64,000 nucleotides of DNA from a virus. The position numbers and the translations under genes are program-made. The notes under the pieces were generated by a model, which did not search any database, was not told the origin of the DNA, and saw only the letters and a list, made by a program, of their open reading frames with translations. Within the stretch, counting starts at the first letter, position 1, and every line of letters begins with the position of its first letter. Where the stretch lies: the UHGV virus genome UHGV-0382128. One strand, 5' to 3'. Positions 33,407 through 64,000 of the stretch are shown here, piece after piece.

Positions 33407-33413
33407 GTACCCC

Positions 33414-35071: not shown

Positions 35072-35617
35072 TTAATCCTTCAAAATGTCTTTAAGTTTTA
35101 GTTTTGTATAGAACGGAGAACTACTTAGTTCTTCTGTCCAACTTATACGTCCGTTCTGTAGAACCCGGTCGAAGATTAGGCCGTTCATCTTTACAATTCT
35201 GGCCAATTGATAAAAGAGTGTCGCGAGATGTAGACGACGCTCCATTTGTGCGCGAGCGGTACAACTTCGTACCGCTTTGATAGCAAGTACCGCTTCTGGC
35301 ATCAACGTAACCGCGATTGACTCAGGATGTTCGTTTTTCCATTTCTTAATGGCTAGTAGTCGGTGTAGTGATTTTTCAAGGGGACGTAAATCCCCGTTAT
35401 TCATCACGTAAACTAGAGCAGCAATATCCCACAAGGCGTTACCCACCGCTTTAGCAACAAACAACCCGTCGTGTGATGTCGTGGATTCACAGACTTTGCC
35501 AATACTTCCATAAACACGTGCAGTCCATGCGTCTGTCTGTTCGCCGGGTTTTATACCCGCGTTATCCAGAAAGTGTTTAAACGCATTAACGTGATCAGTT
35601 AACTGTATTTGTTTCAT
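35072..35617 (-). CDS. Hypothetical protein (181 aa)
   Basis: ORF only. Confidence 0.45.
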   Translation of the reverse strand: MKQIQLTDHVNAFKHFLDNAGIKPGEQTDAWTARVYGSIGKVCESTTSHDGLFVAKAVGNALWDIAALVYVMNNGDLRPLEKSLHRLLAIKKWKNEHPESIAVTLMPEAVLAIKAVRSCTARAQMERRLHLATLFYQLARIVKMNGLIFDRVLQNGRISWTEELSSSPFYTKLKLKDILKD

Positions 35618-35631
35618 TTCCGATACCCGAT

Positions 35632-36147
35632 TTAGTCACGAGACTTTATTTTAAGGTACGCAACCGCAGCTCCCACGATTGCAATACCGGCGCCCCAACC
35701 TATCTTTTCTATTACACTCATATCGTCCCATCTTTTCTCTTCGTTACGTCGTTTGGCCTCGTCTGCCCGTTCTCTCCACATCGCTTCGCGTTCCAGACAG
35801 CTGGGATTTATTTCCTCTTCACAACGACGTTTCCGCTCTTCTTCCCTAACCAGTTCTTCTAAATAGAGCCTCGTTTCTTCCACAGCTTGTTCATAGACGT
35901 CTATGCGTTCGGGAAGAATTCTCCTGTGAGCGGCTTTGTTGCGAACGGAAGCAATCATGTGGAGTTTCCGTTCGTATTTTGGTTCGAGAAGATGAGCTAT
36001 GCTTTTGGTCTTCCCATGAAGCCCATGACCGGTACCGCCGAGTTTTTCCACAAGTTCTTCTACAGAAATTGCAAGATCGAGAATATATCCACGCATAATT
36101 GTTTCTCCGCTTAAACGCAGTCTTGGGAGACATAAGTCTGTTCCCAA
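35632..36147 (-). CDS. Small protein with HEPN-like Rx4H motif and C-terminal transmembrane helix (171 aa; may start at the internal Met near 36096)
   Basis: ...LHMIASVRNKAAHRRILPER... matches R-N-x-x-x-H; then a highly charged Glu/Arg/Lys-rich segment and hydrophobic IGWGAGIAIVGAAVAYL. Confidence 0.3.
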   Translation of the reverse strand: MGTDLCLPRLRLSGETIMRGYILDLAISVEELVEKLGGTGHGLHGKTKSIAHLLEPKYERKLHMIASVRNKAAHRRILPERIDVYEQAVEETRLYLEELVREEERKRRCEEEINPSCLEREAMWRERADEAKRRNEEKRWDDMSVIEKIGWGAGIAIVGAAVAYLKIKSRD

Positions 36148-45605: not shown

Positions 45606-45655
45606 AAAAGTAAAGCTACCCCTAGACCACACGGTCTAGGGGTAAACTATTTATT
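45606..45655. terminator. Bidirectional rho-independent terminator
   Basis: Stem cccctagacc / ggtctagggg (45619-45642) flanked by A-run and T-rich tract; between convergent genes. Confidence 0.75.
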
Positions 45656-46550
45656 TCCCACGATAAAATCCAGAGATGTAGCTTGGCGCTATCCATCGCC
45701 ATTCGCGCCAACGCATTTCTGACATTTTACCACACCATACACGCTTCCAATGAGCACGACGGATATGTGCTGCGCAATAAATCGCCAAACAAACCTCGTG
45801 TCCCTCCTTGCGTTGTTGTTCTATATCTTCCCATTGTACCGGACTTACGTCTAAAACGACCGCTTCACTACGTGGGCGAATCTCTGTATCAGGAACATAA
45901 CGAATGGTCCTCCCGCGAAATTCTTTCTTCTCACGTTCAGTTCGTTTAATTCGCGATGAAAGATATAGTCCGATATAGACGGCGTCGAGTAGTCGTTGAT
46001 TCTCCTTAACCGAAGTAAGGAGCGGCTTTAACTCCACGAAATCATCATTACTTTTATCGATCGTGTAAATCTCAAACTCCATGTATACCGACTCGTCATG
46101 TTCTTCGCATGACATCACAAAGAGAACTTCTTCACCTTCGTAAAGACGTCTTCCGATAAATAACGTGATTGGACATTCGTCGAGATTTACGGTAACCGAG
46201 AAAGTAAATGAAGGGATGGTTTCTATCCAGAAGTACGGGATATTTTTTAGTCTCTCAGTTTTTGCTAAGAGCGCCATCAGTTCTTCATCCGAGATGATTT
46301 CAACAGCAGCGTATTGCCATCCTAGTCCCAGGGACTGCTTAATCAGTCTGGGAATCTGTTCGGTAACGCCATATTCACGATAGGTCGGATCTTTAACTGG
46401 CATAAACGTTACGGGTATTTGTCGTTTATGCTCGTTAATGAACCGAATAAAACGGCACTGATCTAATCCGTGAATTGTTTGGTGTGCTTTTTCTATCTGT
46501 TCGCTCATGCGTCTTAGCGCTTTCCCGTAAAGTCTATTATTCGTTGTCAT
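45651..46550 (-). CDS. Paralog family A, member 1 (~299 aa; start revised to ATG at 46550)
   Basis: Track ORF 45651..46646 overlaps the upstream gene; the internal ATG (MTTNNRLYG...) is preceded by SD ggagca. C-terminal AAHIRRAHWKRVWCG...W.EWRWIAPSYISGF is shared with the neighbouring gene. Confidence 0.5.
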   Translation of the reverse strand: MTTNNRLYGKALRRMSEQIEKAHQTIHGLDQCRFIRFINEHKRQIPVTFMPVKDPTYREYGVTEQIPRLIKQSLGLGWQYAAVEIISDEELMALLAKTERLKNIPYFWIETIPSFTFSVTVNLDECPITLFIGRRLYEGEEVLFVMSCEEHDESVYMEFEIYTIDKSNDDFVELKPLLTSVKENQRLLDAVYIGLYLSSRIKRTEREKKEFRGRTIRYVPDTEIRPRSEAVVLDVSPVQWEDIEQQRKEGHEVCLAIYCAAHIRRAHWKRVWCGKMSEMRWREWRWIAPSYISGFYRGK

Positions 46551-46575
46551 TTTAATGCTCCTAAACACTTTTAGC

Positions 46576-47502
46576 TTAATTGTGGGGTACGTAGCCACGG
46601 ACAAATGTAGGTGGAATCCAACAAAGTTTTCTTTTTCTTTCCCCATCTCTTGGACCGACCCAATATCTGCGCCAGTGCGCGCGACGAATATGTGCGGCCT
46701 TGGCGTGTTTGATACCTTCCATGGTTTTCAAGTCGGTGTTAAATCCCTTTAGATATTTCACTTGTTCTGGTGTGATGTCTATTTTAACGTCACGTTCACG
46801 AGGTTTGATTTCGTGACTTATGCTACCATTCTTTTTGATTTCTTTGAACTTAATGTCATTGAAAGACCCTCTGAGATTGGGCGGGATTAGCGTACAGAGA
46901 AATATCAACGATATGGCGGTTTTGGCCAGTGATAACCATAACGTCTTCTCTTGTTCGGTCTGTACGCCAGTTGTATAATCGATTTCAACAAGCCCGTTTC
47001 CAACACTACATATCTCTAACGAGCAGGTGGCGATTGTGGTAACGCCTTCTGTTAACCCGTAATCAGTATTTGTAGCAATTATAATAAACCTTCTATTCCC
47101 ATTTTTTCGATAACCGAGAAAGAAAGTCTCATCTTCTTTACCTACATCGATTGCCACAGTCCAAGTAGGTATAAAGTCCAACCATTCTTCAGGGAATTTA
47201 CTGGGCATCTCAGTCTCGAAAACAAGTTCTCTAAGTGCTCGATCGGATATTAAGGAAGCACCACCGTATAGCCATCCGATCGCCAATGTTTGAGCGTGAA
47301 GGGAACGGGGATCTTTGAGACCTAACTCAGCATCGTAGGGTATAAAGGCATTAGTTAAATGCTTACGATTCTTTTTTATCCATTTCGAGACGGGATTTTC
47401 TTTTGTTTGGTTTTCTTCCATGACATTTTCTAGATGCTGACTCCCCATTTGTCTAAGGCAGTCTTTAATACCTTTTACTTTTTTACTTTTGTACAAATAC
47501 AT
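46576..47502 (-). CDS. Paralog family A, member 2 (308 aa)
   Basis: C-terminal AAHIRRAHWRRYWVG...LCWIPPTFVRGY and an internal block similar to the gene downstream; own SD aggaga after a terminator. Confidence 0.55.
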   Translation of the reverse strand: MYLYKSKKVKGIKDCLRQMGSQHLENVMEENQTKENPVSKWIKKNRKHLTNAFIPYDAELGLKDPRSLHAQTLAIGWLYGGASLISDRALRELVFETEMPSKFPEEWLDFIPTWTVAIDVGKEDETFFLGYRKNGNRRFIIIATNTDYGLTEGVTTIATCSLEICSVGNGLVEIDYTTGVQTEQEKTLWLSLAKTAISLIFLCTLIPPNLRGSFNDIKFKEIKKNGSISHEIKPRERDVKIDITPEQVKYLKGFNTDLKTMEGIKHAKAAHIRRAHWRRYWVGPRDGERKRKLCWIPPTFVRGYVPHN

Positions 47503-53371: not shown

Positions 53372-53418
53372 CGTTAAAAAGAAAGGCCCTCCTGTACCTC
53401 GAAGGGTACAGGAGGGAG
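53372..53418 (-). terminator. Rho-independent terminator
   Basis: Stem ccctcctgtaccc / gggtacaggaggg, loop tcgaa, T-run on minus, then SD aggaga + ATG. Confidence 0.7.
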
Positions 53419-53420
53419 TG

Positions 53421-53879
53421 TCAGTACAAACACGATGTCAAGTATTGGTTATACGAATCGAGCAGTGCCTGACGGTCGGAACGGTAATTCCACAACAAAT
53501 TATTGAGTTTACGCGATAAATCACGGCTAATCTCCTGGGCCGTTAAAGAGCTCTCATCAAGAAACATGCGCTCAGGTACAACGTGTAATTTCGGTAACTC
53601 ATAGCGTTCACAAAGTGGAGCCAACATTGGTGGACTCCAGCCACGTTTAGCGGCTTGCTGGTTTAAATTTCGTGTGTAGACATAAACGTAATAAGCATAG
53701 GTGTTGACATCTGCAACATACTCACGCATTGCATTCTTGTCAATTTTCCAATTCACCATTATTGGCGGTTCAGGAGGAAGTTCCAGTGGTCTATAAGCTG
53801 GACGTTTAACTTCGTCACCGTAGCTATTACTCACCAACCCCACGAACACTACCATGATGAATAATAGCATTTTCATCAA
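53421..53879 (-). CDS. Secreted/periplasmic protein with N-terminal signal peptide (152 aa)
   Basis: MMKMLLFIMVVFVGLVSNSYG|DEV: hydrophobic core and small residues at -3/-1; no lipobox Cys. Confidence 0.5.
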   Translation of the reverse strand: MMKMLLFIMVVFVGLVSNSYGDEVKRPAYRPLELPPEPPIMVNWKIDKNAMREYVADVNTYAYYVYVYTRNLNQQAAKRGWSPPMLAPLCERYELPKLHVVPERMFLDESSLTAQEISRDLSRKLNNLLWNYRSDRQALLDSYNQYLTSCLY

Positions 53880-54383
53880 TCACTCCTTAGAAGACGATAG
53901 CGTCTTTATGATCTCCTGTCGAAAACTGTTCGCGTTTAAATTACCAACAGGTCTCGCCGAAGCCTCTTTACGTTGTTCTGGTGTTGAAGCCGGATTAACA
54001 GGAGTTTCTGGTTTTGCCGAGGACAGATCCTTCGTCGTACCGCTCGCTTTCGATGAATTAAACGTGCTTTCATATGGCGGTTTCTGGCCGAGGCAAACGA
54101 AGAGTCTGTCGTATAACTTATCATTATCTTCTTTTAGTTTATCTCGATCTTGTTTCATCTCTTGGTAAGACTGTGACATATAAGTGTCATGAGACTGCAC
54201 TGCAACGAGCGCGTGAAACTGTTGTACATAGGCGTAGGAGACGAAGCCAGAATACGACAACAAGATCGTGATGATTAAAGTCATTATCTTGCTTGCTCTT
54301 GATACGTTTTCTCCTTCTCCTGGTTTAAATGCTTCCATTAACATCTGAAGGAAGAACGGAAGCACTTTAAAAAATGAACCCAT
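53880..54383 (-). CDS. Membrane protein with one N-terminal TM helix and charged periplasmic/coiled-coil-like domain (167 aa); i-spanin-like
   Basis: TM segment IMTLIITILLSYSGFVSYAYV, then KQDRDKLKEDNDKLYDRL; abuts the signal-peptide gene. Confidence 0.4.
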   Translation of the reverse strand: MGSFFKVLPFFLQMLMEAFKPGEGENVSRASKIMTLIITILLSYSGFVSYAYVQQFHALVAVQSHDTYMSQSYQEMKQDRDKLKEDNDKLYDRLFVCLGQKPPYESTFNSSKASGTTKDLSSAKPETPVNPASTPEQRKEASARPVGNLNANSFRQEIIKTLSSSKE

Positions 54384-54408
54384 TGCTCACCTCGGAGTAT
54401 TTTTAATT

Positions 54409-55782
54409 ATGTTAGACTTACAAGGTTTTATTCAGATACCGGCACTGTTTGACAATCAGGACGGCGTCACCGCTCCGGTGGGCGAGCTGTCGGATTTGAC
54501 ACTCTCGTACGCGAAGAGTAAACAGACGTTTACCAAAACCAATTTGCAAGTTCAATTGGTGACTTTTACGTCTAAACGAGAAAAACAGACGGTTGTTGTA
54601 CCAGCCGAATTTTCTGATCATATTCTAACCGTTTCTCAATGGATATACCAGCAAGCCATCTTGGGGAATCTGAGAAATGACGAACTTGAATTCCAGCGCC
54701 TGTTACTAGGACAATTCCAATCAACCATTTCTGGCGTTCAGTCCGGTGCGATGATTCAGACGAACAGTAATTGGTTCCCACGCTGGGTGAGCTGGAAATA
54801 TGAAGCAACAGCAGATCAAGTACAAGATGACACTGATGTAGATAATCAGATCATTGTTTGGTTCTCGGATGAAGACTTCGATCAAGATTACACAGGGTTC
54901 GAAATCGAAGTGCAGATGCCGATTTCACCAATCGACACATTTTTGTCGACCAAGTCAGTCGTTGAAAAGGCGATGGAAGGGTTTAACCTTACCGAACACC
55001 ATAAGAAAATCAATGAGTTAATGGCAGGATTTCCTTACACCGCTATCCAAACCAACTACTATACTTGGCACGATAAAGAAAACTACGAGTCCACCCTAGT
55101 TGTCCCAATGTCGGTTATTATTTACGGCCGCGCGGGAAAAAACCCAACGAAAATAAAGCAAGCATTGCGAGAACATATTCTTGCCAATTCTAGCTTTACT
55201 GTCCCCGTCGGGGTAAAGGTATTTCCTGAAATTTTCACTACCACGAAATTTACAATTGTTCCTGGATGGAAAATTCGTGGAATACCTAATGAGGAAGACG
55301 TAGCGGCGCTTTATTCCCCTATCCTTCCATATGATTTCTGGGTCAAAGCTATCAGTCGGTTTGGAGAATGGGCAGACCTGACGGTAGCGGAAAGAAATAC
55401 TAAAACGATCAGTAAGCCTACGACAGATGTAACTGACTTACCAACCGTTTATAAATCATTAAACTGTGTTGTAATCAGTGGGCCGGAAAATGATACGCGG
55501 AAAGCGACCTTACACGAAACTATCCCGGATTATGCGTTAATTGCGACGACTAACCCTGATATTGCGCGTATGTCGAAAACAACGACCGAATGGTTGGCGT
55601 TATTCTTCCAGGCACTTATTGCTGCGGAAGAATACCACCCGTATCAAACCAGCTTAGATGTTGTAAAACTGGTCGATGAGGCTGACCCTGATAACTACTT
55701 CTGGGTGTTTGAATACGACAACGTAGAATATCGTATCCTGTCTCGGAAAGCGAAATGGTACACCGAGTTAGACGAGGAGTAA
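54409..55782 (+). CDS. Hypothetical protein (457 aa)
   Basis: ORF; only 25 bp from the divergent 54383 start. Confidence 0.5.
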   Translation: MLDLQGFIQIPALFDNQDGVTAPVGELSDLTLSYAKSKQTFTKTNLQVQLVTFTSKREKQTVVVPAEFSDHILTVSQWIYQQAILGNLRNDELEFQRLLLGQFQSTISGVQSGAMIQTNSNWFPRWVSWKYEATADQVQDDTDVDNQIIVWFSDEDFDQDYTGFEIEVQMPISPIDTFLSTKSVVEKAMEGFNLTEHHKKINELMAGFPYTAIQTNYYTWHDKENYESTLVVPMSVIIYGRAGKNPTKIKQALREHILANSSFTVPVGVKVFPEIFTTTKFTIVPGWKIRGIPNEEDVAALYSPILPYDFWVKAISRFGEWADLTVAERNTKTISKPTTDVTDLPTVYKSLNCVVISGPENDTRKATLHETIPDYALIATTNPDIARMSKTTTEWLALFFQALIAAEEYHPYQTSLDVVKLVDEADPDNYFWVFEYDNVEYRILSRKAKWYTELDEE

Positions 55783-55785
55783 TGA

Positions 55786-56409
55786 ATGGCTACGCGTTTA
55801 CCACTCCAGGTACCAGTCAACACCACGGGACTGTTTAAAGTAAAAACACCATTTACTTTGGCCGAGACCGTCATTTATACGGTAGAAGCGTCACGTACCT
55901 TCCCAGATTTAGTACGTCAGAATATTGACGTTTATAACTCGTATTACCAGCCAGTAGGGCTAGGACGTGAAGAATATTTAGCAGATGCGAATGTTAGCGC
56001 GTCGATTCTGACATTTAAATCTCGTGATGGTCAAGTTGTATACATACCTGACACCTACCTGGAATCATACCCAGGTTTATCCGGGATCACGTATCAACGA
56101 AATGTGTTAGTGGTAGATTTGGCACTGGTACCGGATTACGTGAAAGTGTCGTCTATAACAAAAGACGTTTCAGATATTCTCACGCATACACTAGGGATTG
56201 AGCCGAAAGTTGAAATTACAACGCTCGAGTATGAGGGGAAGGTAACGGAGGAACAACACTTGCAGATGGAAGCGGCACGAAAAAATAAAATTCGTGAATC
56301 TATTCCATTAGGTGAGAAAGTTGCTGCGTTGACAGAAGAGAACAAAAAATTAAAAGAGTTAAACAACCAAATGTTAGAGATTCTTAAAGCTAACGGGTTA
56401 GTTAACTAA
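55786..56409 (+). CDS. Hypothetical protein (207 aa) with C-terminal coiled-coil-like segment
   Basis: ORF 3 nt after the upstream gene; ends at a terminator. Confidence 0.5.
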   Translation: MATRLPLQVPVNTTGLFKVKTPFTLAETVIYTVEASRTFPDLVRQNIDVYNSYYQPVGLGREEYLADANVSASILTFKSRDGQVVYIPDTYLESYPGLSGITYQRNVLVVDLALVPDYVKVSSITKDVSDILTHTLGIEPKVEITTLEYEGKVTEEQHLQMEAARKNKIRESIPLGEKVAALTEENKKLKELNNQMLEILKANGLVN

Positions 56410-56455
56410 AAAAGATTACCCTACTCCTTCGGGAGTAGGGTAGCTTTTATTTTAA
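56410..56455. terminator. Bidirectional rho-independent terminator (CCCTACTCC family)
   Basis: Stem taccctactcc / ggagtagggta, loop ttcg, then gcttttatttt; between convergent genes. Confidence 0.8.
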
Positions 56456-57000
56456 ATGTCAACTTCTAGTTTACGGTAATCGATGACACCTTGAGCAATC
56501 ATAGCAGCAACATCGTTCCAAGTACGAAAAATGAAGTAAACTGTGTCTCCGTTTAAAAAGATGTTAGATTCTTTATCCGGGAAATCGTCTTCACTGAGGT
56601 AGTAGTAGGGTTTGTCGAATGGGAAGTCGCGCTCATCAGAGGAACCAAGTACCGCATAACGATTGCCACAATCAAACAGAATCTTCCAACCAGACATTTC
56701 ACTATTAGCGTCAATACGATCGACGATTTCAACGGTAATAGGAGAATGATCAAGAAAACTGATTGTAATATCTCCGTTATAACGCTTGAATCGCCAAATA
56801 TCTGTAGGTACGATTTCAGATGCCGCTATAAGGGAATAAAGTTGTGTTGATGTGATCTTTTTGTAAACGTTAGTTCCATCTCCAAAATGGTTATATAAGA
56901 AATTAGCCAGGAAATTTATATCCTTTAAACGTGTGCGGAAAACAGAACCACGACGAATACCGTAAGCCAGATGAGTTAAATATTCAGATGATGGAAACAT
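56452..57000 (-). CDS. Paralog family C, member 1 (182 aa)
   Basis: N-terminus MFPSSEYLTHLAYGIRRGSVF...FLANFLYNHFGDGT resembles that of the upstream gene (MTFPSEVIYTLANIFRRSHNF...VTADFLFNYLIGTD). Confidence 0.5.
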   Translation of the reverse strand: MFPSSEYLTHLAYGIRRGSVFRTRLKDINFLANFLYNHFGDGTNVYKKITSTQLYSLIAASEIVPTDIWRFKRYNGDITISFLDHSPITVEIVDRIDANSEMSGWKILFDCGNRYAVLGSSDERDFPFDKPYYYLSEDDFPDKESNIFLNGDTVYFIFRTWNDVAAMIAQGVIDYRKLEVDI

Positions 57001-57015
57001 TTTAATACTCCTAAG

Positions 57016-57054
57016 ATGGAAAAAGAATTAACCCTACTCCCGGAGGAGTAGGGG
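57016..57054 (-). terminator. Rho-independent terminator (CCCTACTCC family)
   Basis: Stem ccctactcc / ggagtaggg, loop cgga, T-run on minus, then SD aggag. Confidence 0.7.
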
Positions 57055-57061
57055 ACTTAAA

Positions 57062-58006
57062 TTATTTTTTGGTTTGGCCCAGCTTTTCAAGAACCAGTTC
57101 ACGAATGTACTTTTGAGTACGTTTCTTCGGCGGTAAAGCCATAAGGGTGTCAACGATTTCCTGGCCGCTGATAACCTTGCTGACGAGTTGCTGAACTTGG
57201 AAGAGTTCTGCTTCTTCGTCGCTAATTTCGTTAGCTTGGTCTTTCTGACACAACGCTTCTACCAGATCAGCTACGGATATTTCATTTTCGTCACCGGGGA
57301 AATCCAGGTTTAACGATTCGAAAACATCACGTTTAACGAGTACAGATTTCAGATCATCGTAGTTTTCACAAACGGCGACTTCTGTACCAGGTACCGTCGG
57401 TTCATTGTACTCAGCAAACAAATCTTCCATTACTTTCTGATCGTGCTCTACTTTCAAAGCGTGGAAGGTGTTGGAAGCCTTGGTTAAGACGTAACCAATT
57501 TGCTGCCAGCTACTCAGAATGAAGCAAAGCGTTTTTCCAGTTAGACCGATATTGCCCTGACGTGCGTCAAAAAAGATTTCTTCGGTGCGAGAAATCTGAC
57601 CCAGTTCGAAAAAGGTTTCTTTTTTGGCCGCGACGACTTCATACCGATTCTTACCCTGTTCTACAACAATTAACCAGTTACCAAGAATTTCGTGTTGGTA
57701 GTTTGATAGGGAGAGAGACTCGTTACCCACGAGTGGTTTAATGTCAATGGACGCCCGGCGCATACCCATTGAGAAGTTGAACTTAACCCCATTGTTATAC
57801 GCTGAGGCGTACTCGATCGGGATAATTTCTGAGACACGTTCAATATCCATAATTGTTTCCTGCGTAACACATGCAGGATCGGTACCAATTAGGTAATTAA
57901 ACAGAAAGTCGGCTGTAACGTCTGCCGATTTCCGAAAGATTGGGAAATTATGGCTGCGGCGGAAAATATTAGCCAGTGTATAGATTACTTCAGATGGAAA
58001 AGTCAT
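57062..58006 (-). CDS. Paralog family C, member 2 (314 aa) with acidic C-terminal extension
   Basis: See family C member 1; extra ~130 aa C-terminal region. Confidence 0.5.
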   Translation of the reverse strand: MTFPSEVIYTLANIFRRSHNFPIFRKSADVTADFLFNYLIGTDPACVTQETIMDIERVSEIIPIEYASAYNNGVKFNFSMGMRRASIDIKPLVGNESLSLSNYQHEILGNWLIVVEQGKNRYEVVAAKKETFFELGQISRTEEIFFDARQGNIGLTGKTLCFILSSWQQIGYVLTKASNTFHALKVEHDQKVMEDLFAEYNEPTVPGTEVAVCENYDDLKSVLVKRDVFESLNLDFPGDENEISVADLVEALCQKDQANEISDEEAELFQVQQLVSKVISGQEIVDTLMALPPKKRTQKYIRELVLEKLGQTKK

Positions 58007-58059
58007 TTTAATAGTCCTCTTTTAGGTTTGTTCAAATCAACTAAGGGTTATGTAAAAAG

Positions 58060-58539
58060 TTAAAATAAAGGCAAGTTACGCCATTGTCCTACCGAGTAAA
58101 AAGCTTTTGGATGTTTACGGATATACGCTTTCGCTTCTTCTGGCAACCAACGGTCACCTACCAGTTTTTGTTGTGCAACAATTACTGCCATCAACAAATA
58201 CGGGTTTTTCGCACCGGGAAACTTTGCATTGGTTTCTAGCGCAATATCCAACATTGACGACCAGCCCAGTAATTTATGTTGCGCCGGTAAACGTTCTTCA
58301 ATATACATCAGCCACTTCATGATTTGTTTAGGCTTATACGGACAGGTATAATTCGCCCAACAGACCATGACGAACTTAATAGCCTTCGCAATCACCCATA
58401 CAGGGACAGTCACGAAAAGGCAGAAAATAGCCAACTGCGAGGCGGGCGCTTCGACAAAAGTAACCGCTACAAGAACCATACACAGTTCAAGTACCACAAA
58501 CCAAAAACGTGTCGGATAACGCCAAATGAATTTTATCAT
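58060..58539 (-). CDS. Membrane protein with two or three N-terminal TM helices (159 aa); holin-like candidate
   Basis: Hydrophobic FWFVVLELCMVLVAVTFV and LAIFCLFVTVPVWVIAKAIKFVMV; two genes upstream of the endolysin-like SLT gene. Confidence 0.4.
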   Translation of the reverse strand: MIKFIWRYPTRFWFVVLELCMVLVAVTFVEAPASQLAIFCLFVTVPVWVIAKAIKFVMVCWANYTCPYKPKQIMKWLMYIEERLPAQHKLLGWSSMLDIALETNAKFPGAKNPYLLMAVIVAQQKLVGDRWLPEEAKAYIRKHPKAFYSVGQWRNLPLF

Positions 58540-58547
58540 AACTCTGC

Positions 58548-58590
58548 TCCTTTAGGGAATGAAAATAAAAGTACCCCTTACTCCGTATAG
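58548..58590 (-). terminator. Rho-independent terminator
   Basis: Stem accccttac / gtaaggggt (~11 bp), T-run on minus, then SD aaggag. Confidence 0.7.
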
Positions 58591-58605
58591 GGTAAGGGGT
58601 AGAGG

Positions 58606-59115
58606 TTAGAAGAACGGCTGGTTTGGAATGACAGCGTACTCTAAAATGAACATGTGTTCTGGGGCGTCTTCTTTACGCCAGACTTTGTGTGTCGACACAA
58701 GTTTTTCCAGAATCGTTAAGAAACTGCGCTGGCAGTATGTGTTTTCACCAAGCAGTAGATTTTGAAGTTCTACAGTAGCGTCCATATACGCCTGTTTAAA
58801 GACTAAATTACGGTTATACTGCCCGGTAAAATTCCAAAGCAAGACTTTCCCTTCTTCGGTTTCTTTTACCGTTGGTCGTAAACCACAAATCCACAGTAAG
58901 GCAAGGTTGACGTTCCAGTCAAACTCTAAACCTTCTTCTTCGTCATCACCGAATGCTGTGGGTAAAGCATCGTAAAATTCGTGTTTCTCTGCGAATTCTT
59001 CATCCGACTTAATCTCGTCTTCGATACTGCTTCGGACGATACTGTAAACGTCTTTCGCGGTCAATTGTGCGGCTTTTGTAATGCCTTTATACCAATCGGT
59101 TACTACGATGCTCAA
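58606..59115 (-). CDS. Hypothetical protein (169 aa)
   Basis: ORF overlapping the SLT gene by 4 nt. Confidence 0.45.
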   Translation of the reverse strand: MSIVVTDWYKGITKAAQLTAKDVYSIVRSSIEDEIKSDEEFAEKHEFYDALPTAFGDDEEEGLEFDWNVNLALLWICGLRPTVKETEEGKVLLWNFTGQYNRNLVFKQAYMDATVELQNLLLGENTYCQRSFLTILEKLVSTHKVWRKEDAPEHMFILEYAVIPNQPFF

Positions 59116-59837
59116 AGGGTAACTCCTCTATTGATTGGAAAACTCGTGTTTATCGTATCCCAAATTCTACTAACTTCCGCCAGTTGAATCTGACGTGGTG
59201 TTTTCTTCGCAAACGCAAGCTGACGTGGGGCCGAGCCCACAACAACAGGCACATCGATTTTCGCGCTATAGAACGCGGCGTCTTTCATAAAGCCTGCCAT
59301 TTCTCGTTGTGCTGCTCGAGATTTGCTTTTGATTCGCGTGTGAGCGCCACTTTCACCCCAGTGGTAAGCTAACGCAATTTCAGCCATGGTGGGCTTGCGT
59401 TTGAGTCGTTTGGTTAACCCCCTCTCAAGATGTTTAACATACGCGGCAGCCAGCAAAACAGCATTACGCGGATTATATAAATCGGCGTTCTGACTAAGAC
59501 CTAATTCTTTTCCATAAAGCCTTAGCAGATTACGCTTGGTACTTGGAAGCATCTGTACCAGGCTGTGTGCTCGTGAGCTTTTGTTGTAAGCCTTGGGATC
59601 AAAACGTGATTCGCGATAAATCAGCGTAATCATCAGCTTAGGATCAACGCCTTGCTTTCGTGAGATTTCCACAATTAACGGGCTGACTTTTTCGAACCGA
59701 TGTTGGATTTGTGCAAACTCACGCTGATGCTTAGAATGTGGCGTTGACGTTGACGCCTGTGCGTTAAACGCGAAAAGTGTTACCAGTAAAAGAAAGAAGA
59801 TACGAAACATTTTGTTTCTCCAGTTGGATTTATACAT
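59112..59837 (-). CDS. Signal-peptide-bearing lytic transglycosylase (SLT domain), endolysin candidate (241 aa)
   Basis: N-terminal MFRIFFLLLVTLFAFNAQAS; SLT core LIYRESRFDPKAYNKSSRAHSLVQMLPST...LLAAAYVKHL (catalytic Glu-Ser and the SxxGxxQ block). Confidence 0.7.
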   Translation of the reverse strand: MYKSNWRNKMFRIFFLLLVTLFAFNAQASTSTPHSKHQREFAQIQHRFEKVSPLIVEISRKQGVDPKLMITLIYRESRFDPKAYNKSSRAHSLVQMLPSTKRNLLRLYGKELGLSQNADLYNPRNAVLLAAAYVKHLERGLTKRLKRKPTMAEIALAYHWGESGAHTRIKSKSRAAQREMAGFMKDAAFYSAKIDVPVVVGSAPRQLAFAKKTPRQIQLAEVSRIWDTINTSFPINRGVTL

Positions 59838-61903: not shown

Positions 61904-62083
61904 CTAATTCCGCCATTCGCATTCGCGTTGACGCCAAATTGAACCCCACGATAGTTTAATCAGATAAGATGAAACTACCCATAAAATCATCACCACACAA
62001 AACATGACATAAAGAACCGCTAGAATGGACATGAAGCCAAACCCTGCCGCATCCACAATACGACGGAACCAATCAGTTTGCAT
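61904..62083 (-). CDS. Small membrane protein (~59 aa)
   Basis: Track ORF 61904..62089 begins at a TTG; ATG at 62083 (MQTDWFRRIVD...) has SD aggag. TM FGFMSILAVLYVMFCVVMILWVV. Confidence 0.35.
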   Translation of the reverse strand: MQTDWFRRIVDAAGFGFMSILAVLYVMFCVVMILWVVSSYLIKLSWGSIWRQRECEWRN

Positions 62084-64000
62084 AAACAATTTTTACTCCT
62101 TCGTTATACACCGCAGGCAATGTCACTCCTTCCGGTTCGATGACACAGTACGATGCTTCATTAAGTTTAGAATGGACCTCAGCTTCGTGGGAAACTACCA
62201 AGAGTTGTGAAAATTCTCCCGAGTTTGCTAACGTTTTAATAAAGCCGACCAGGTTATTACGGTGTTCCTCGTCCATGCCTTCCGAAGGCTCATCCAAAAG
62301 CAACGGAAACTGATGCAACTTCAGCGCTTTGTACGCAGTCAGTCTGAACATCAGATTAAATATAGCACGCTGTGCCTTAGACCCTTTACGCACGTCAGGA
62401 ACAGGCTCAGGGTGCGTTTTTAGCTGGACAGGAAAAGTATAATCCAAATCGCCGTCAGTGAGATCACAGGGCATAACACGCATGGGGTACGTCCAGACCT
62501 GTTCGATATAACGCGTCATTAACTCTGTGATTCTAACGATAGCGTTGTAAAAATACTTTCTAAGTACACCCTTTTCTGGCGAGAAGGCTTGAATCATCAG
62601 TTTGTTATTGAACTGCTGGGCTTGTAAGTCAGCAAGTTCACGTTCCAAACTGTTGAGTTGGTTCAATTCATTTTCCATCTGACGATAACGCTCGCGTGCG
62701 GTTGTAAAAGCATCCAGCTTCCCTTCCCGCACTCGTAAGAGTTCCTCGACGACCGTATTTGTCAACGTAACCTTAACATCACTCTCTAACCGTTCGAATA
62801 ACGCACTGAAATCATCTACAGCACGTTTAACATTCACTAGATAGGTAAGTGTCGTGTTAGCCAGTTCGTGCTCTCTACGACGCATTGAGAGCATCTCTGT
62901 GGCTTTACCTAATCGCGACTGTTGGAAGGCGATTTTCTGTTGTAAAGCACCATCGACGTTACCAACGGCCGCTACGGCATCCTGCCATTCTTTTTCCGCT
63001 TTCACTAACCGTTGTCGGGTTTCATGGTACTCAATAGCAGAGTACAATTCACCGTCAAACGCTGCACATAGACTCCCGAACTGCTCGCGAGATTCTGTGA
63101 AAACGTTACGTTCTTGCAAACGCTTAAAGAACATGCTCAATATCGGGTCCTTTGAATACGTCAGCACAATCTCACGAACCTGCCGCATATAAGTTACATC
63201 AGATTCTAATTCAACACGATCGCGTAATAAGGTCTCTAGCTGTGTTTGAAGTTCCGTCCGTTGCTGCTGTTGACCACGAATCGATGACTCGAGTTCAGGT
63301 AAAGAACGCGTAACACCTGGCCGAAACTTAAACCGACACTGCGGACAATCCACTTCTGCCGTTTCTAAGTAGTGGTTACGTTCGTGATTTAAATTCTGTA
63401 AAACGTTCTCCACTCGCTGGAGTCTATCCCGTAATCCTGCGGTTTTTTGATCCATCACCAGAAGACGTTCTTCCAAAACATTGAGTTTCTCGGTTGAATG
63501 AATAGCGTCCAGTGTTGTTCCCAACCGTTGTCCCCAAACACGCGCATCGGTAGCCGCACGAAGTTGGTCTAAATTAACGTTATCGTTAAATAAACCTGGA
63601 AAGAGATGTTCGGTGTCCCACTTGGTAAGTAACTCACGTAAACGTGCCAGTGTGTTCTTGAGACCTTCGTGGTTCCGCATCAGGTAGTCTTGTCGTGTTG
63701 ACTCATCCATCAATAGCGATAAATCTTTATTCAACATCGATACCTCTGTTTCGGTAGAAACGACGGCTTCGCGGGCTGTCGCTTCATTTTGTCGGGCGGC
63801 CAGTATCTGTTCATCAGTAGGCAACCCACCACGATGTTGTAATATTGCGTCGATGGTTGGACCCAAACCGTTTAATAACGCTTGGATTGTTTCGATCGTG
63901 ACAGCACGATTTAATCCTGGCAACTGTTCGATTTCTCGGTTCAGTTCACGTAAATCCGATTCCAAACCTTTTAATCTCGTTGCTAATTGTTGTCGTTCTT
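62073..64000 (-). CDS. SbcC/Rad50-like recombination-repair ATPase, partial (N-terminus outside right edge)
   Basis: Long coiled-coil with zinc-hook-like CPQC (DCPQCRFKF), C-terminal FPLLLDEPSEGMD (Walker B/D-loop). Reading frame is open from 64000; the track start at 63965 is a TTG. Confidence 0.6.
   Translation of the reverse strand, partial: ERQQLATRLKGLESDLRELNREIEQLPGLNRAVTIETIQALLNGLGPTIDAILQHRGGLPTDEQILAARQNEATAREAVVSTETEVSMLNKDLSLLMDESTRQDYLMRNHEGLKNTLARLRELLTKWDTEHLFPGLFNDNVNLDQLRAATDARVWGQRLGTTLDAIHSTEKLNVLEERLLVMDQKTAGLRDRLQRVENVLQNLNHERNHYLETAEVDCPQCRFKFRPGVTRSLPELESSIRGQQQQRTELQTQLETLLRDRVELESDVTYMRQVREIVLTYSKDPILSMFFKRLQERNVFTESREQFGSLCAAFDGELYSAIEYHETRQRLVKAEKEWQDAVAAVGNVDGALQQKIAFQQSRLGKATEMLSMRRREHELANTTLTYLVNVKRAVDDFSALFERLESDVKVTLTNTVVEELLRVREGKLDAFTTARERYRQMENELNQLNSLERELADLQAQQFNNKLMIQAFSPEKGVLRKYFYNAIVRITELMTRYIEQVWTYPMRVMPCDLTDGDLDYTFPVQLKTHPEPVPDVRKGSKAQRAIFNLMFRLTAYKALKLHQFPLLLDEPSEGMDEEHRNNLVGFIKTLANSGEFSQLLVVSHEAEVHSKLNEASYCVIEPEGVTLPAVYNEGVKIVYAN

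What the first reader, a model, noticed from the sequence alone, without database searches (positions are those of the whole stretch)
53421..59837. Dispersed lysis candidates: signal-peptide transglycosylase, multi-TM protein and a membrane/secreted pair
The 241-aa SLT protein with a cleavable-looking signal sequence is the best endolysin candidate; a Sec-exported or signal-anchor endolysin implies holin-independent export. A 159-aa protein with 2-3 TM helices lies two genes upstream. About 5 kb away, a type-II-membrane-like protein with a charged periplasmic domain directly precedes a signal-peptide protein, an arrangement reminiscent of i-spanin/o-spanin, although the second protein lacks a lipobox cysteine.
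Basis: partly seen in the sequence, partly recalled or inferred. Interest (0 to 1): 0.45.

Follow-up and report, generated by a model that had tools for sequence, protein, structure and literature searches.

The report
Jumbo-phage lysis genes; anchorless spanin-like protein
This stretch of a giant Salmonella/E. coli phage carries a secreted cell-wall-cutting enzyme, a candidate membrane "timer" protein and a spanin-like protein pair for bursting the host, and the unusual point is that the outer partner of the pair has lost the lipid anchor that nearly all its relatives carry.

Summary
All four ORFs are real, conserved and under purifying selection. The window comes from an SPN3US-like nucleus-forming jumbo phage and is gene-for-gene syntenic with SPN3US gp198-gp207.

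The SLT protein most likely starts at 59810 (232 aa). Its catalytic domain is phiKZ-gp144-type, but a classical cleavable-type Sec signal peptide replaces the peptidoglycan-binding domain. It is not a SAR domain, and every homolog examined has the same signal.

The 159-aa protein has two TMDs and sits in the SLT transcription unit. It is a holin candidate by position only.

The 167/152-aa pair belongs to the family catalogued as the separated i-/o-spanin of Cronobacter phage CR5 (SPN3US gp204/gp205). About 40 of 43 usable family representatives have a lipobox. The window clade and one unrelated lineage instead have a Cys-less signal peptide.

Two caveats:
- phiKZ carries orthologs of the pair (gp156.1/gp156) in addition to its proven spanins gp141/141.1, so the spanin role is not established.
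- This phage group also encodes a cytoplasmic GH108 endolysin-type enzyme outside the window, so the SLT is not the only endolysin candidate.

None of the SPN3US orthologs is in the virion proteome. Verdict: the lysis reading is partly supported, and the anchorless variant of the outer subunit is new.

The parts
59112..59810 (-). Secreted lytic transglycosylase, 232 aa from the ATG at 59810 (the longest ORF reaches 59837, 241 aa). It has a gp144-type SLT catalytic domain with catalytic Glu at residue 67 (E76 in 241-aa numbering). Ortholog of SPN3US gp198.
   Evidence: Pfam SLT E=5e-14. PHROG 4067 transglycosylase E=5e-47. The best solved relative is phiKZ endolysin gp144 (3BKH), E=3e-7, with Glu aligned to gp144 E115. 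It is 44-56% identical to the 'putative endolysin/transglycosylase' of SPN3US, phiEaH2, ChrisDB and Huxley. dN/dS is 0.08.
59754..59810 (-). Signal peptide of the SLT protein: MFRIFFLLLVTLFAFNAQA, with predicted cleavage after AQA.
   Evidence: Read directly from the sequence. The same n-h-c layout with an AXA-like site occurs in SPN3US (FNSNA|S), ChrisDB (FNAHA|S), Huxley (FNAAA|I), CR5 (LHAMS|S), L013 (FNAYA|S) and L017 (PVEA|K). The h-region is F/L/V-rich and only about 13 residues long, unlike Gly/Ala-rich SAR domains.
58606..59115 (-). 169-aa conserved cytoplasmic protein. Its start overlaps the SLT stop by 4 nt, so the two are probably translationally coupled. Ortholog of SPN3US gp199. 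Function unknown; it could be a lysis-associated factor.
   Evidence: PHROG 8114 E=8e-76. 28 homologs, all in this phage group. AF2 model pLDDT 85.9, pTM 0.83, alpha/beta fold. The only Foldseek BFVD match is R4II41, a 157-aa protein that by length is probably the CR5 counterpart (157-aa gene downstream of the CR5 SLT); there is no match to phiKZ gp143. No TMD.
58060..58539 (-). 159-aa membrane protein with two N-terminal TMDs (about 10-33 and 34-54) and a cytoplasmic tail of about 100 aa. Predicted N-in/C-in topology. Holin/pinholin candidate by position.
   Evidence: Hydropathy scan. PHROG 20030 (unknown function) E=9e-8. Weak similarity to Huxley gp210, E=4e-4. SPN3US has an unrelated 86-aa 2-TMD protein (gp200) at the same position. 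No hit in Pfam, NCBIfam or PADLOC.
57062..58006 (-). 314-aa cytoplasmic protein, the last gene of the SLT transcription unit. Ortholog of SPN3US gp201. Function unknown.
   Evidence: PHROG 11818 E=3e-27. Synteny.
57032..57053 (-). Intrinsic-terminator-like hairpin (9-bp stem followed by a T-rich tail) that ends the SLT-169-159-314 unit.
54409..56409 (+). Two tail-associated virion genes on the opposite strand, encoding 457 aa (SPN3US gp203, essential) and 207 aa (DUF7194, SPN3US gp202). They split the two lysis-candidate units and are not lysis genes.
   Evidence: PHROG 3293 virion structural protein E=3e-172 and Pfam DUF7194 E=7e-72. SPN3US gp202/gp203 are detected in virions and lost from tail-less particles.
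53880..54383 (-). 167-aa i-spanin-like inner-membrane protein. Layout: N-terminal amphipathic segment, TMD 33-53, charged helix of about 45 residues with Cys97, P/S/T-rich linker, conserved C-terminal RPVG...FRQEI motif. Ortholog of SPN3US gp204 and CR5_183.
   Evidence: PHROG 8719 E=7e-59. Hydropathy. CR5_183, listed as a 'separated i-spanin' in Kongari 2018 with a predicted coiled coil at 66-99, shares ...FSAYVSYAYVQQFHALV.... dN/dS is 0.16.
53421..53876 (-). 151-aa o-spanin-like periplasmic protein with an SPase-I-type signal peptide and no lipobox Cys. The mature part is a Pro-rich start (RPLELPPEPP), then helix - loop (Cys89) - helix, ending in Cys149. Ortholog of the lipoproteins SPN3US gp205, CR5_184 and phiKZ gp156.
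   Evidence: PHROG 8165 E=2e-41. Alignments A1/A2. Family profile search and lipobox census. The family HMM hits phiKZ gp156 as the top of 281 ORFs, E=1.6e-7. AF2 model pLDDT 71.5. The Foldseek top hit is 'Lipoprotein [Erwinia phage Kwan]'.
53817..53876 (-). Signal peptide of the 151-aa protein: MKMLLFIMVVFVGLVSNSYG. Leu14 occupies the alignment column of the lipobox Cys of the homologs (VFVGL versus LLVGC).
   Evidence: Alignment A1. The same Cys-less c-region, VGLVSN(S/G)YG, is kept through synonymous changes in L013 and in E. coli p98232.
53387..53416 (-). Strong intrinsic-terminator-like hairpin (12-bp stem, 8 GC pairs, T-rich tail) 5 nt after the stop of the 151-aa gene. It makes the 167/151 pair its own two-gene unit.

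Best explanation
The region holds the two halves of the host-lysis apparatus of an SPN3US-like nucleus-forming jumbo phage of Enterobacteriaceae. Two tail genes on the opposite strand split the halves.

Unit 1 (59810 to 57032, minus strand) encodes four proteins.
- A lytic transglycosylase. Its catalytic domain is the phiKZ-endolysin (gp144) type, but a classical Sec signal peptide replaces the N-terminal peptidoglycan-binding domain.
- A translationally coupled, conserved 169-aa cytoplasmic protein.
- A two-TMD membrane protein.
- A 314-aa protein of unknown function.

Inferred mechanism for unit 1:
- The enzyme is exported by Sec during late infection, independently of any holin.
- It accumulates in the periplasm without killing the cell.
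- It is unleashed when the membrane is de-energised, most plausibly by the two-TMD protein acting like a pinholin.

Unit 2 (54383 to 53387) encodes a spanin-like pair.
- The first gene encodes a type II inner-membrane protein with a periplasmic coiled coil and a conserved C-terminal motif.
- The gene immediately downstream encodes a helical-hairpin periplasmic protein. Its homologs are outer-membrane lipoproteins.
- The inferred role is disruption of the outer membrane after the wall is degraded.

In this phage clade the outer subunit has exchanged its lipobox for an ordinary signal peptide and has lost the roughly 20-residue tether. It must therefore act without a lipid anchor, held by the inner subunit and/or by its aromatic-rich helix.

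Shown by tool results: the homologies, the signal and lipobox states, the operon boundaries, selection, and the non-virion status of the orthologs. Inferred: export, timing, the holin role and the outer-membrane disruption role.
For: Identity and synteny:
- The gene order is the same as SPN3US gp198-gp207, CR5, ChrisDB, Huxley, L013 and L017.

SLT:
- Pfam SLT domain.
- The closest solved structure is the phiKZ endolysin gp144, with the catalytic Glu aligned.
- Thomas 2016 Table S1 pairs gp198 with the phiKZ endolysin.
- The signal peptide is conserved in seven lineages.
- Cronobacter phage CR5 is not among the 204 phage records with a GH108 homolog at E<=1e-30. The secreted SLT may therefore be its only soluble muralytic enzyme.

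Operon structure:
- Terminator-like hairpins lie directly after the 314-aa gene and after the 151-aa gene.

Spanin-like pair:
- CR5_183/184 are catalogued as a separated i-/o-spanin.
- SPN3US gp205 has the lipobox LLTGC.
- It is the only lipoprotein with an adjacent type II partner in the whole SPN3US genome.
- Periplasmic Cys residues are conserved in both subunits.

Non-virion status:
- SPN3US gp198-201 and gp204-205 are absent from the virion proteome, while gp202/203 are present.

Loss of the anchor is real and selected:
- The same Cys-less signal occurs in the window, P0001, P0002/L013 and E. coli p98232.
- It also occurs independently in L017/P0061.
- dN is 0.13 with saturated dS.
Against: - phiKZ has orthologs of the pair (gp156.1/gp156, lipobox LISGC) at the syntenic site. 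Yet its functional spanins are gp141/141.1, which complement lambda Rz/Rz1 mutants. In phiKZ TnSeq neither gp156 nor gp156.1 has filtered insertions. This hints at a non-redundant role, although a polar effect on the essential RNase H gene is possible.
- By definition an o-spanin is an outer-membrane lipoprotein, and that defining feature is absent here.
- A second, cytoplasmic muralytic enzyme (GH108+PG_binding_3) is conserved in SPN3US, the Machinavirus phages and a complete genome of the window's own clade. It is the canonical endolysin type in many phages.
- The two-TMD protein has no detectable relation to known holins, is larger than typical holins, and has no counterpart next to the SLT in CR5 or L017.
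- The 169-aa protein shows no sequence or fold similarity to the phiKZ lysis regulator gp143.
- There is no experimental lysis data for any member of this phage group.
Confidence: 0.5

Rival explanations
1. The 167/151 pair is not a spanin. It is the local version of an ancient chimallivirus envelope complex (phiKZ gp156.1/gp156 family), made of an inner-membrane protein and a periplasmic or outer-membrane partner. Its function is something other than outer-membrane disruption at lysis, for example envelope remodelling, superinfection control or sensing. Lipid anchoring would then be optional, which would explain why it was lost twice.
For: - phiKZ keeps this pair in addition to proven spanins in its lysis cassette.
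- phiKZ TnSeq Table S2 shows 0 filtered insertions in PHIKZ156 and 156.1, while the neighbouring gp158 has 19 sites.
- The lipobox was lost independently in two lineages under purifying selection.
- The mature protein is a structured helical hairpin rather than the short Pro-rich unstructured peptide typical of Rz1-type o-spanins.
- The pair is a separate transcription unit next to RNase H/exonuclease genes, not inside a lysis cassette.
Against: - The architecture matches the spanin definition in every respect but the lipobox: a type II protein with a coiled coil, an immediately downstream secreted partner, and conserved periplasmic cysteines.
- In SPN3US it is the only candidate two-component spanin in the genome, and most Gram-negative tailed phages need one.
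- The missing TnSeq insertions may be polar effects on the essential gp155.
- No alternative function has any direct support.
Confidence: 0.33
2. The enzyme that actually lyses the cell is the cytoplasmic GH108+PG_binding_3 muramidase encoded outside the window and released by a canonical holin. The secreted SLT is an accessory periplasmic wall-remodelling enzyme, for example one that loosens the sacculus of the swelling infected cell or primes it for lysis.
For: - The GH108 gene is conserved at 60-66% identity across SPN3US, phiEaH2, the Machinavirus phages and the window clade's complete relative p98232.
- It is not a virion protein in SPN3US.
- Its nearest non-jumbo relatives are annotated as the endolysins of the CR3/CR9-type phages.
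- Host cells tolerate periplasmic SLT-family enzymes. This rests on established knowledge of Slt70/EmtA, and NCBIfam's best hits for the window SLT are EmtA and MltC.
- In the phage literature read here, Sec-exported endolysins of Gram-negative phages are SAR-type rather than cleaved.
Against: - The secreted SLT is the more widely conserved enzyme. It is present with its signal peptide and at the same locus in CR5 and L017 as well.
- CR5 is not among the GH108 hits.
- Its catalytic domain is the one used by the proven phiKZ endolysin.
- It shares a transcription unit with a membrane protein.
Confidence: 0.3
3. The proteins are virion components used at infection for wall penetration and have no role in lysis.
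For: - SLT domains are common in virion lysins.
- The window also encodes a 2374-aa virion-type SLT protein.
- The flanking 457/207-aa genes encode tail proteins.
Against: - SPN3US virion proteomics lists 83 proteins, including gp202, gp203 and gp239, but not gp198, gp199, gp200, gp201, gp204 or gp205.
- Sec signal peptides direct these proteins out of the cytoplasm, where virions assemble.
Confidence: 0.03
4. The missing lipobox is an artefact (sequencing error or wrong start) or marks a decaying pseudogene.
For: A single Cys-to-Leu change at the lipobox position (TGY to TTG) would be enough.
Against: - The ORF cannot be extended upstream, because a stop codon immediately precedes it.
- The Cys-less signal with its SN(S/G)YG cleavage region is identical in four independently assembled relatives that differ at synonymous sites.
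- dN/dS is far below 1.
- The post-Cys tether is also deleted, so this is a coordinated change.
- A second lineage shows the same state.
Confidence: 0.02

Closest known systems
Cronobacter phage CR5 separated two-component spanin (CR5_183 i-spanin / CR5_184 o-spanin; Kongari et al. 2018, PMC6139136) and its orthologs SPN3US gp204/gp205
   Same: - Homologous proteins: PHROG 8719/8165, and 36-48% identity for the outer subunit.
- Same gene order and locus, between the gp203-type tail gene and the exonuclease/RNase H genes.
- Same TMD, coiled coil and conserved cysteines.
   Different: - The CR5 and SPN3US outer subunits have a lipobox (LTGC) and a tether of about 20 residues. The window protein has neither.
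- The CR5 assignment is itself purely bioinformatic and listed as a singleton family.
phiKZ gp156.1 / gp156 (uncharacterised membrane protein + lipoprotein between RNase H gp155 and gp157)
   Same: - Positional orthologs.
- gp156 matches the family HMM over the Cys-to-Cys C-terminal domain, E=1.6e-7 in a 281-ORF search, and by PSI-BLAST in Thomas 2016.
- gp156.1 has the same layout of an N-terminal amphipathic segment followed by a TMD.
   Different: - gp156 is a lipoprotein (LISGC).
- gp156.1 is shorter (96 aa) and is not detectable by sequence profile.
- phiKZ additionally has a separate, proven spanin pair.
phiKZ lysis cassette gp141/141.1 (spanins), gp142 (class III holin), gp143 (regulator), gp144 (endolysin) (Manohar et al. 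2026, PMC12894885)
   Same: - The SLT catalytic domain of gp144 is the closest characterised relative of the window SLT.
- Both have an overall multi-gene lysis logic.
   Different: - gp144 is cytoplasmic, has an N-terminal peptidoglycan-binding domain and depends on a holin. The window enzyme has a signal peptide instead.
- There are no homologs of gp141, 141.1, 142 or 143 in the window.
- The genes are split into two units rather than one cassette.
Secreted endolysin Lys44 of Oenococcus phage fOg44 (cleavable signal peptide; activity triggered by membrane de-energisation) and SAR endolysins (P1 Lyz, phage 21 R)
   Same: - Holin-independent Sec export of the muralytic enzyme.
- A membrane-depolarising protein is needed only as a trigger.
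   Different: - Lys44 is from a Gram-positive system.
- SAR endolysins keep an uncleaved, weakly hydrophobic Gly/Ala-rich N-terminal TMD. Here the h-region is short and strongly hydrophobic, and an AXA site follows it.
- Comparison based on literature and on general knowledge of these systems.
Lambda Rz/Rz1
   Same: - An inner-membrane type II coiled-coil protein paired with a secreted Pro-rich partner.
- Conserved periplasmic cysteines.
   Different: - No sequence similarity.
- Separated rather than embedded genes.
- The outer subunit is large and helical and, here, not lipidated. In the Rz1 paradigm the lipid anchor is a defining feature (my knowledge; not tested here).

Membership tests
Two-component spanin (i-spanin/o-spanin as defined in Kongari et al. 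2018) | The i-spanin is a type II inner-membrane protein with an N-terminal TMD and a periplasmic alpha-helical/coiled-coil domain. | tested here: met
   TMD at 33-53. A charged helical stretch at about 55-100. The CR5 ortholog is listed with a predicted coiled coil at 66-99.
Two-component spanin (i-spanin/o-spanin as defined in Kongari et al. 2018) | The o-spanin gene is embedded in, overlaps, or lies immediately downstream of the i-spanin gene. | tested here: met
   The genes abut: stop at 53880-53882, next start at 53876-53879. A terminator follows the pair.
Two-component spanin (i-spanin/o-spanin as defined in Kongari et al. 2018) | The o-spanin is an outer-membrane lipoprotein with a signal peptide ending in a lipobox and an invariant Cys. 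| tested here: not met
   There is no Cys in residues 1-88, and Leu14 sits in the lipobox-Cys column. No credible lipobox ORF exists anywhere in the 64-kb window. About 40 of 43 usable family representatives do have a lipobox.
Two-component spanin (i-spanin/o-spanin as defined in Kongari et al. 2018) | Both subunits have periplasmic cysteines available for intermolecular disulfides. | tested here: met
   Cys97 in the 167-aa protein. Cys89 and Cys149 in the 151-aa protein, invariant in A2 and nearly invariant in A1.
Two-component spanin (i-spanin/o-spanin as defined in Kongari et al. 2018) | Function: required for outer-membrane disruption, shown by complementing lambda RzamRz1am. | not testable with these tools
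   No experimental data exist for this family. phiKZ's proven spanins are a different pair.
SAR (signal-arrest-release) endolysin | An N-terminal, uncleaved, weakly hydrophobic TMD of about 20 residues, rich in Gly/Ala/Ser/Thr. | tested here: not met
   The h-region IFFLLLVTLFAF is about 13 residues and F/L/V-rich, with one Ala and one Thr, and is followed by NAQA|S. The criterion comes from established knowledge of P1 Lyz and R21. No SignalP run was possible.
Sec-exported endolysin with cleavable signal peptide (Lys44 type) | An n-h-c signal peptide with a -3/-1 small-residue site, in front of a catalytically competent muralytic domain. | tested here: met
   The n-region contains R, the h-region is 13 aa, and the c-region is N-A-Q-A. 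The layout is conserved in seven lineages. SLT domain with the catalytic Glu aligned to gp144 E115. Actual cleavage and export were not testable.
phiKZ gp144-type modular endolysin | An N-terminal peptidoglycan-binding domain plus a C-terminal SLT catalytic domain, with no signal sequence. | tested here: not met
   Only the SLT domain is found. The alignment to gp144 covers residues 90-210 of gp144 only. For contrast, the PCH45 enzyme is of the gp144 type.
Holin (class II / pinholin-like) | A small membrane protein with at least one TMD, encoded next to the endolysin, with a charged cytoplasmic C-terminus and lethal, energy-poison-triggerable hole formation. | tested here: inconclusive
   It has two TMDs and lies in the same transcription unit as the SLT. 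However, it is 159 aa with a tail of about 100 aa, has no homology to any holin family, and the slot is empty in CR5 and L017. Triggering is not testable here.

The most novel reading that the evidence does not exclude
The gp156/gp205 family pair is a periplasm-spanning complex of nucleus-forming jumbo phages whose outer subunit can work without any lipid anchor. There are two possible forms of this reading. In the first, it is a spanin that reaches or perturbs the outer membrane through its aromatic-rich helical hairpin, which would overturn the rule that o-spanins must be lipoproteins. In the second, it is a previously unrecognised, fitness-conferring envelope system distinct from spanins that has been mis-catalogued as one.
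Probability: 0.3. Interest if true: 0.7.

Novelty: new variant of a known kind. Interest (0 to 1): 0.5.

Why it matters
How giant nucleus-forming phages burst their hosts has only just been worked out for phiKZ, and nothing has been tested in the SPN3US group, which includes therapeutic and biocontrol candidates against Salmonella, E. coli and Erwinia. This locus suggests that the group uses a different logic:
- a Sec-exported, probably cleaved transglycosylase, which in the phage literature read here is described for Gram-positive phages, whereas Sec-exported endolysins of Gram-negative phages are SAR-type;
- a spanin-like pair that is separate from the enzyme.

The natural lipobox-plus and lipobox-minus versions of the same outer subunit form a ready-made experiment on whether lipid anchoring is essential for this class of proteins. 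The fact that phiKZ carries the pair alongside proven spanins questions an existing catalogue assignment. Close relatives of this phage also sit as 222-kb "plasmids" in complete clinical E. coli and Enterobacter assemblies, so correct annotation of these genes has practical value.

Tried and rejected
- **Is the 169-aa protein the counterpart of the phiKZ lysis regulator gp143?** BLASTP found nothing. A confident AF2 model (pLDDT 86) matched only R4II41 in BFVD, a 157-aa protein that by length is probably the CR5 counterpart. No support.
- **Homologs of phiKZ gp141, 141.1 and 142 in the window:** none.
- **Another lipoprotein or u-spanin that might replace the lost anchor:**
  - No credible lipobox ORF in the window.
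  - In the complete relative p98232, the only candidates are a lone 159-aa lipoprotein next to the GH108 gene, which has no C-terminal TMD and no type II partner, and a 47-aa protein with a VLGC motif.
  - Neither fits a spanin.
- **Rescue of the lipobox by an alternative start or frame:** impossible, because a stop codon lies immediately upstream. The embedded 62-aa ORF inside the 167-aa gene has no lipobox.
- **Stop-codon read-through fusing the 167- and 151-aa proteins.** They are in frame here and in SPN3US and CR5. They are not in frame in ChrisDB, Huxley, L017 or phiKZ, from the coordinates. This was treated as coincidence.
- **Tn-seq essentiality of the Serratia phage PCH45 'lytic transglycosylase' as support for the secreted SLT:** by gene order, that enzyme appears to be a gp144-type protein with a peptidoglycan-binding domain and no signal. 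It does not bear on this family.
- **Other library scans:** PADLOC found nothing for the proteins scanned, and NCBIfam gave only weak, below-cut-off SLT-family matches (EmtA, MltC) for the SLT protein.
- **Foldseek of the 151-aa model:** only family members and other jumbo-phage 'lipoproteins' at weak scores.
- **AcrVA2-like Pfam labels** on two genes of the relative L013 were not reproduced for the two adjacent window ORFs scanned (45651-46646 and 46576-47502) at E<=0.001.

Full report
**What the window is**

Megablast of the region finds only short 70-75% matches to Erwinia/Salmonella jumbo phages. At the protein level every gene matches the SPN3US / phiEaH2 / Machinavirus group at about 40-56% identity. 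The gene order is identical to SPN3US gp198-gp207, with these equivalences:

| Window protein | SPN3US ortholog | Note |
|---|---|---|
| SLT | gp198 | 'putative endolysin' |
| 169 aa | gp199 | |
| 159 aa, two TMDs | at the position of gp200 | gp200 is an unrelated 86-aa two-TMD protein |
| 314 aa | gp201 | |
| 207 aa and 457 aa (opposite strand) | gp202 and gp203 | tail proteins |
| 167 aa | gp204 | |
| 152 aa | gp205 | |
| next genes | gp206, gp207 | exoribonuclease and RNase H |

Close relatives of the window phage exist in several assemblies:
- a Logan contig at 79-95% protein identity, with the same gene order;
- a 224-kb contig in a Salmonella Braenderup assembly, 99% identical for one protein;
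- complete circular ~222-kb 'plasmids' of E. coli 98232 and Enterobacter ludwigii, 82% nt identity and colinear over 54 kb of the window.

The host is therefore an enterobacterium.

**Checking the observation**

All four ORFs are present. Each hits a PHROG family. All are under purifying selection against the 79-84% relative: dN/dS is 0.08 for the SLT, 0.05 for the 169-aa gene and 0.16 for the 167-aa gene. dS is saturated for the 159- and 152-aa genes, with dN about 0.13.

Small corrections:
- The SLT most likely starts at the second ATG (59810, 232 aa). That codon has a GGAG 8 nt upstream and all homologs begin there.
- The 152-aa ORF probably starts at the ATG at 53876 (151 aa), behind an AAGGAG.
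- The 159-aa protein has two hydrophobic segments, not three.
- It lies downstream, not upstream, of the SLT gene in the direction of transcription.

A hydropathy scan of a non-overlapping ORF set for the whole window finds these four and a 61-aa ORF as the only small proteins with N-terminal TM or signal segments. It also picked up a few proteins with internal or C-terminal segments, including a 171-aa tail-anchored ORF.

**Transcription units**

Terminator-like hairpins with long GC-rich stems lie at three places:
- directly after the 314-aa gene (57053-57032);
- between the convergent 182-aa and 207-aa genes (56416-56443, bidirectional);
- 5 nt after the 151-aa gene (53416-53387; 12-bp stem).

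So SLT-169-159-314 forms one unit, and the SLT and 169-aa genes overlap by 4 nt. The 167/151 pair is a separate two-gene unit, distinct from the exonuclease/RNase H genes behind it.

**The transglycosylase**

- Pfam finds only an SLT domain (E=5e-14).
- The closest solved structure is the phiKZ endolysin gp144 (3BKH/3BKV; E=3e-7). The alignment covers gp144 residues 90-210, which is the catalytic domain. The window's Glu67 (232-aa numbering) falls on gp144 Glu115.
- Thomas et al. also pair SPN3US gp198 with the phiKZ endolysin.
- Where gp144 has a peptidoglycan-binding domain, this protein has MFRIFFLLLVTLFAFNAQA|STS. That is a basic n-region, a 13-residue F/L/V-rich core and an AXA motif.
- The same design occurs in SPN3US, ChrisDB, Huxley, CR5, L013 and the distant L017.
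- This is the anatomy of a cleavable Sec signal, not of a SAR domain, which is longer, Gly/Ala-rich and uncleaved. That criterion comes from established knowledge; I could not run SignalP.
- In the literature read here, cleavable-signal endolysins are described for Gram-positive phages such as fOg44, and Sec-exported endolysins of Gram-negative phages are SAR-type.
- I found no lysis experiments in any paper on the SPN3US group.

**Caveat on 'the' endolysin**

SPN3US encodes a second, non-virion muralytic enzyme far from this locus. It is SPN3US_0156 (ACQ60_gp110), has Glyco_hydro_108 + PG_binding_3 domains and has no signal. It is conserved at 60-66% identity across SPN3US, phiEaH2, Huxley, ChrisDB and others. 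It is also present in the complete relative of the window phage, p98232 at 35123-35713. RefSeq calls it 'endolysin'.

CR5 is not among the 204 records with a GH108 match at E<=1e-30. CR5 and L017 both keep the secreted SLT at the syntenic site. The SLT is therefore the more universal enzyme, but the data cannot decide which one executes lysis.

The window also contains a 2374-aa protein with an SLT domain (21165-28289). It is the counterpart of the SPN3US virion protein gp239.

**The membrane protein and the 169-aa protein**

The 159-aa protein has a basic N-terminus, two TMDs separated by a 6-residue loop, and a tail of about 100 residues. This predicts N-in/C-in topology.
- It is weakly similar to Huxley gp210 (E=4e-4).
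- Huxley and ChrisDB have further two-TMD proteins at this position.
- SPN3US has an unrelated 86-aa two-TMD protein there.
- CR5 and L017 have none.

A fast-evolving membrane-protein slot downstream of a muralytic gene is what holins look like. However, nothing links this protein to any known holin.

The 169-aa protein folds confidently (pLDDT 86, pTM 0.83). In BFVD it matches only R4II41, a 157-aa protein that by length is probably the CR5 counterpart, not phiKZ gp143. I found no homolog of the phiKZ holin, regulator or spanins in the window.

**The spanin-like pair**

SPN3US gp205 begins MKLFLAAILVLLLTGC|PG, a textbook lipobox. ChrisDB (LVAC), Huxley (LTAC) and CR5 (LTGC) also have one.

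The supplement of Kongari et al. 2018 lists CR5_183 as a separated i-spanin. That 171-aa protein shares ...FSAYVSYAYVQQFHALV... with the window's 167-aa protein. The next gene is listed as the o-spanin, and the pair is a singleton family.

A lipobox scan of the whole SPN3US genome finds only two credible lipoproteins: gp205 and a lone 163-aa protein near the GH108 gene with no type II partner. gp204/gp205 is therefore the only two-component-spanin-like pair there.

Conserved features:
- 167-aa protein: N-terminal amphipathic segment, TMD 33-53, a charged helix with Cys97, a P/S/T-rich linker, and a C-terminal RPVG...FRQEI motif.
- 151-aa protein: a Pro-rich segment (RPLELPPEPP), an aromatic-rich helix (ADVNTYAYYVYVY), a loop with Cys89, a second long helix, and a C-terminal Cys149.
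- The AF2 model has moderate confidence (pLDDT 71.5) and shows a two-helix hairpin.

**The missing anchor**

- In the window protein the column of the lipobox Cys holds Leu14 (VFVGL versus LLVGC).
- The next residues form an SPase-I-type c-region (SNSYG|D).
- The roughly 20-residue tether that follows the Cys in the homologs is gone.
- The same state is found in P0001 (95% identical), P0002/L013 (79%) and p98232, with synonymous differences in the signal-peptide codons.

A profile search of 1.84 billion representative proteins returned 45 family members. Fragments, permuted artefacts and one spurious hit were excluded. About 40 of the 43 remaining sequences have a lipobox. The three exceptions are the two window-clade sequences in the set (P0001, P0002) and P0061 (MRYLIFLLAFSASA|VD).

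P0061 lies in a divergent phage contig (L017) at the same locus. Its neighbours are an i-spanin-like 133-aa protein upstream and a signal-peptide SLT across the two tail genes. The anchor was therefore lost at least twice, in genes that stayed under selection.

No other credible lipoprotein gene exists in the window. The complete relative offers only the lone 159-aa lipoprotein and a 47-aa protein with a VLGC motif. Neither looks like a replacement spanin.

**Why the spanin label is uncertain**

phiKZ has two genes at the syntenic spot, between RNase H gp155 and the gp203-homolog gp157:
- gp156.1 (96 aa; amphipathic N-terminal segment, TMD, charged helix);
- gp156 (lipobox LISGC, with two later Cys).

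An HMM of the gp205 family picks gp156 as the best of 281 ORFs in a 38-kb phiKZ region. The E-value is 1.6e-7, and the alignment covers the whole Cys-to-Cys C-terminal domain. Thomas et al. found the same link by PSI-BLAST. Foldseek places other phiKZ-like 'lipoproteins' (Psa21, Phabio, RP12) among the weak matches.

Yet the spanins of phiKZ are gp141/141.1. They lie in a cassette with the holin gp142, the regulator gp143 and the endolysin gp144, and they complement lambda Rz/Rz1 mutants.

In the phiKZ TnSeq data, the filtered table shows:
- no insertions in PHIKZ156 or 156.1;
- one low-read site each in 141 and 141.1;
- 19 sites in the neighbouring gp158.

This could mean the pair is needed for something the true spanins do not provide. 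It could equally be a polar effect on the essential gp155, a limitation the authors themselves describe. I found no paper on gp156.

**Virion question**

The complete SPN3US virion mass-spectrometry table lists gp202 and gp203, which are lost from tail-less particles. It does not list gp198, 199, 200, 201, 204 or 205, nor the GH108 protein gp156.

**Conclusion**

The most likely reading (about 0.5) is a split lysis apparatus made of:
- a Sec-exported gp144-type transglycosylase, restrained until the membrane is de-energised;
- a two-TMD protein as the probable trigger;
- a CR5-type spanin-like pair, whose outer subunit has become anchorless in this clade.

The main rivals:
- The pair is an unrecognised chimallivirus envelope system rather than a spanin (about 0.33).
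- The GH108 enzyme outside the window is the real endolysin (about 0.3, and not exclusive of the first).

The families are known, but only from annotation and catalogues. The recurrent, selected loss of the lipobox appears to be new, and so does the observation that the pair coexists with proven spanins in phiKZ. Both are directly testable.

Noticed in passing
Whole window; relatives NZ_CP173450.1 (L021-L025) and NZ_CP134650.1: Phages 82% identical to and colinear with the window are deposited as complete circular ~222-kb 'plasmids' of a clinical E. coli (urine, Egypt) and of an Enterobacter ludwigii from a gull. A 99%-identical protein sits on a 224-kb contig of a Salmonella Braenderup assembly. 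This lytic-type jumbo phage evidently travels with bacterial isolates, either in a carrier state or as contamination.
   Followed up: partly
window 21165-28289 (+): A 2374-aa protein with an SLT domain at residues 1998-2085, the counterpart of the SPN3US virion protein gp239. It is a second transglycosylase in the window that the finding did not mention. The next gene (28336-30507, 723 aa) has a TMD at 152-173, as reported for SPN3US gp238.
   Followed up: partly
window 61904-62089 (-): A 61-aa hydrophobic protein (one or two TMDs) immediately downstream of the SbcC/SMC-like gene (62073-63965). It matches the remark in Thomas et al. 2016 about SPN3US gp187.
   Followed up: no
window 35632-36147 (-): A 171-aa protein with a soluble N-terminal domain, a highly charged helix and a Gly/Ala-rich C-terminal TMD (IGWGAGIAIVGAAVAYL). 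This tail-anchored layout is loosely like the phiKZ class III holin gp142, but there is no sequence similarity and no family hit.
   Followed up: partly
window 56452-57000 and 57062-58006 (-): The 182-aa and 314-aa proteins share a similar N-terminus (MFPSSEYLTHLAYGIRR... versus MTFPSEVIYTLANIFRR...), which suggests paralogs. SPN3US has only one (gp201).
   Followed up: no
SPN3US 137623-138114 (L010/L011); p98232 33248-33727 (L021): A lone conserved lipoprotein of about 160 aa (lipobox LAGC/LASC). It lies on its own strand next to the GH108 enzyme, an M15-like protein and a DUF1353 protein. It has no type II membrane partner and no C-terminal TMD. Function unknown; a superinfection-exclusion role is a guess.
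   Followed up: partly
p98232 90722-90865 (L022) versus SPN3US 65485-65628 (L009): A 47-aa membrane protein has a VLGC lipobox-like motif in the window clade's relative, while its SPN3US homolog has no Cys there. This is the reverse of what happened to the gp205 homolog. It could be coincidence.
   Followed up: no
Proteins P0008, P0040, P0069 (Salmonella phage SPFM records): These database entries are permuted or scrambled versions of the gp205 sequence, with the same segments in a different order. They look like assembly or annotation artefacts and were excluded from the census.
   Followed up: no
window 53880-54383 / 53421-53879: The 167- and 152-aa ORFs are in the same reading frame, separated by a single TGA. 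The same holds in SPN3US and CR5 but not in ChrisDB, Huxley, L017 or phiKZ, so read-through is probably not a conserved feature.
   Followed up: partly
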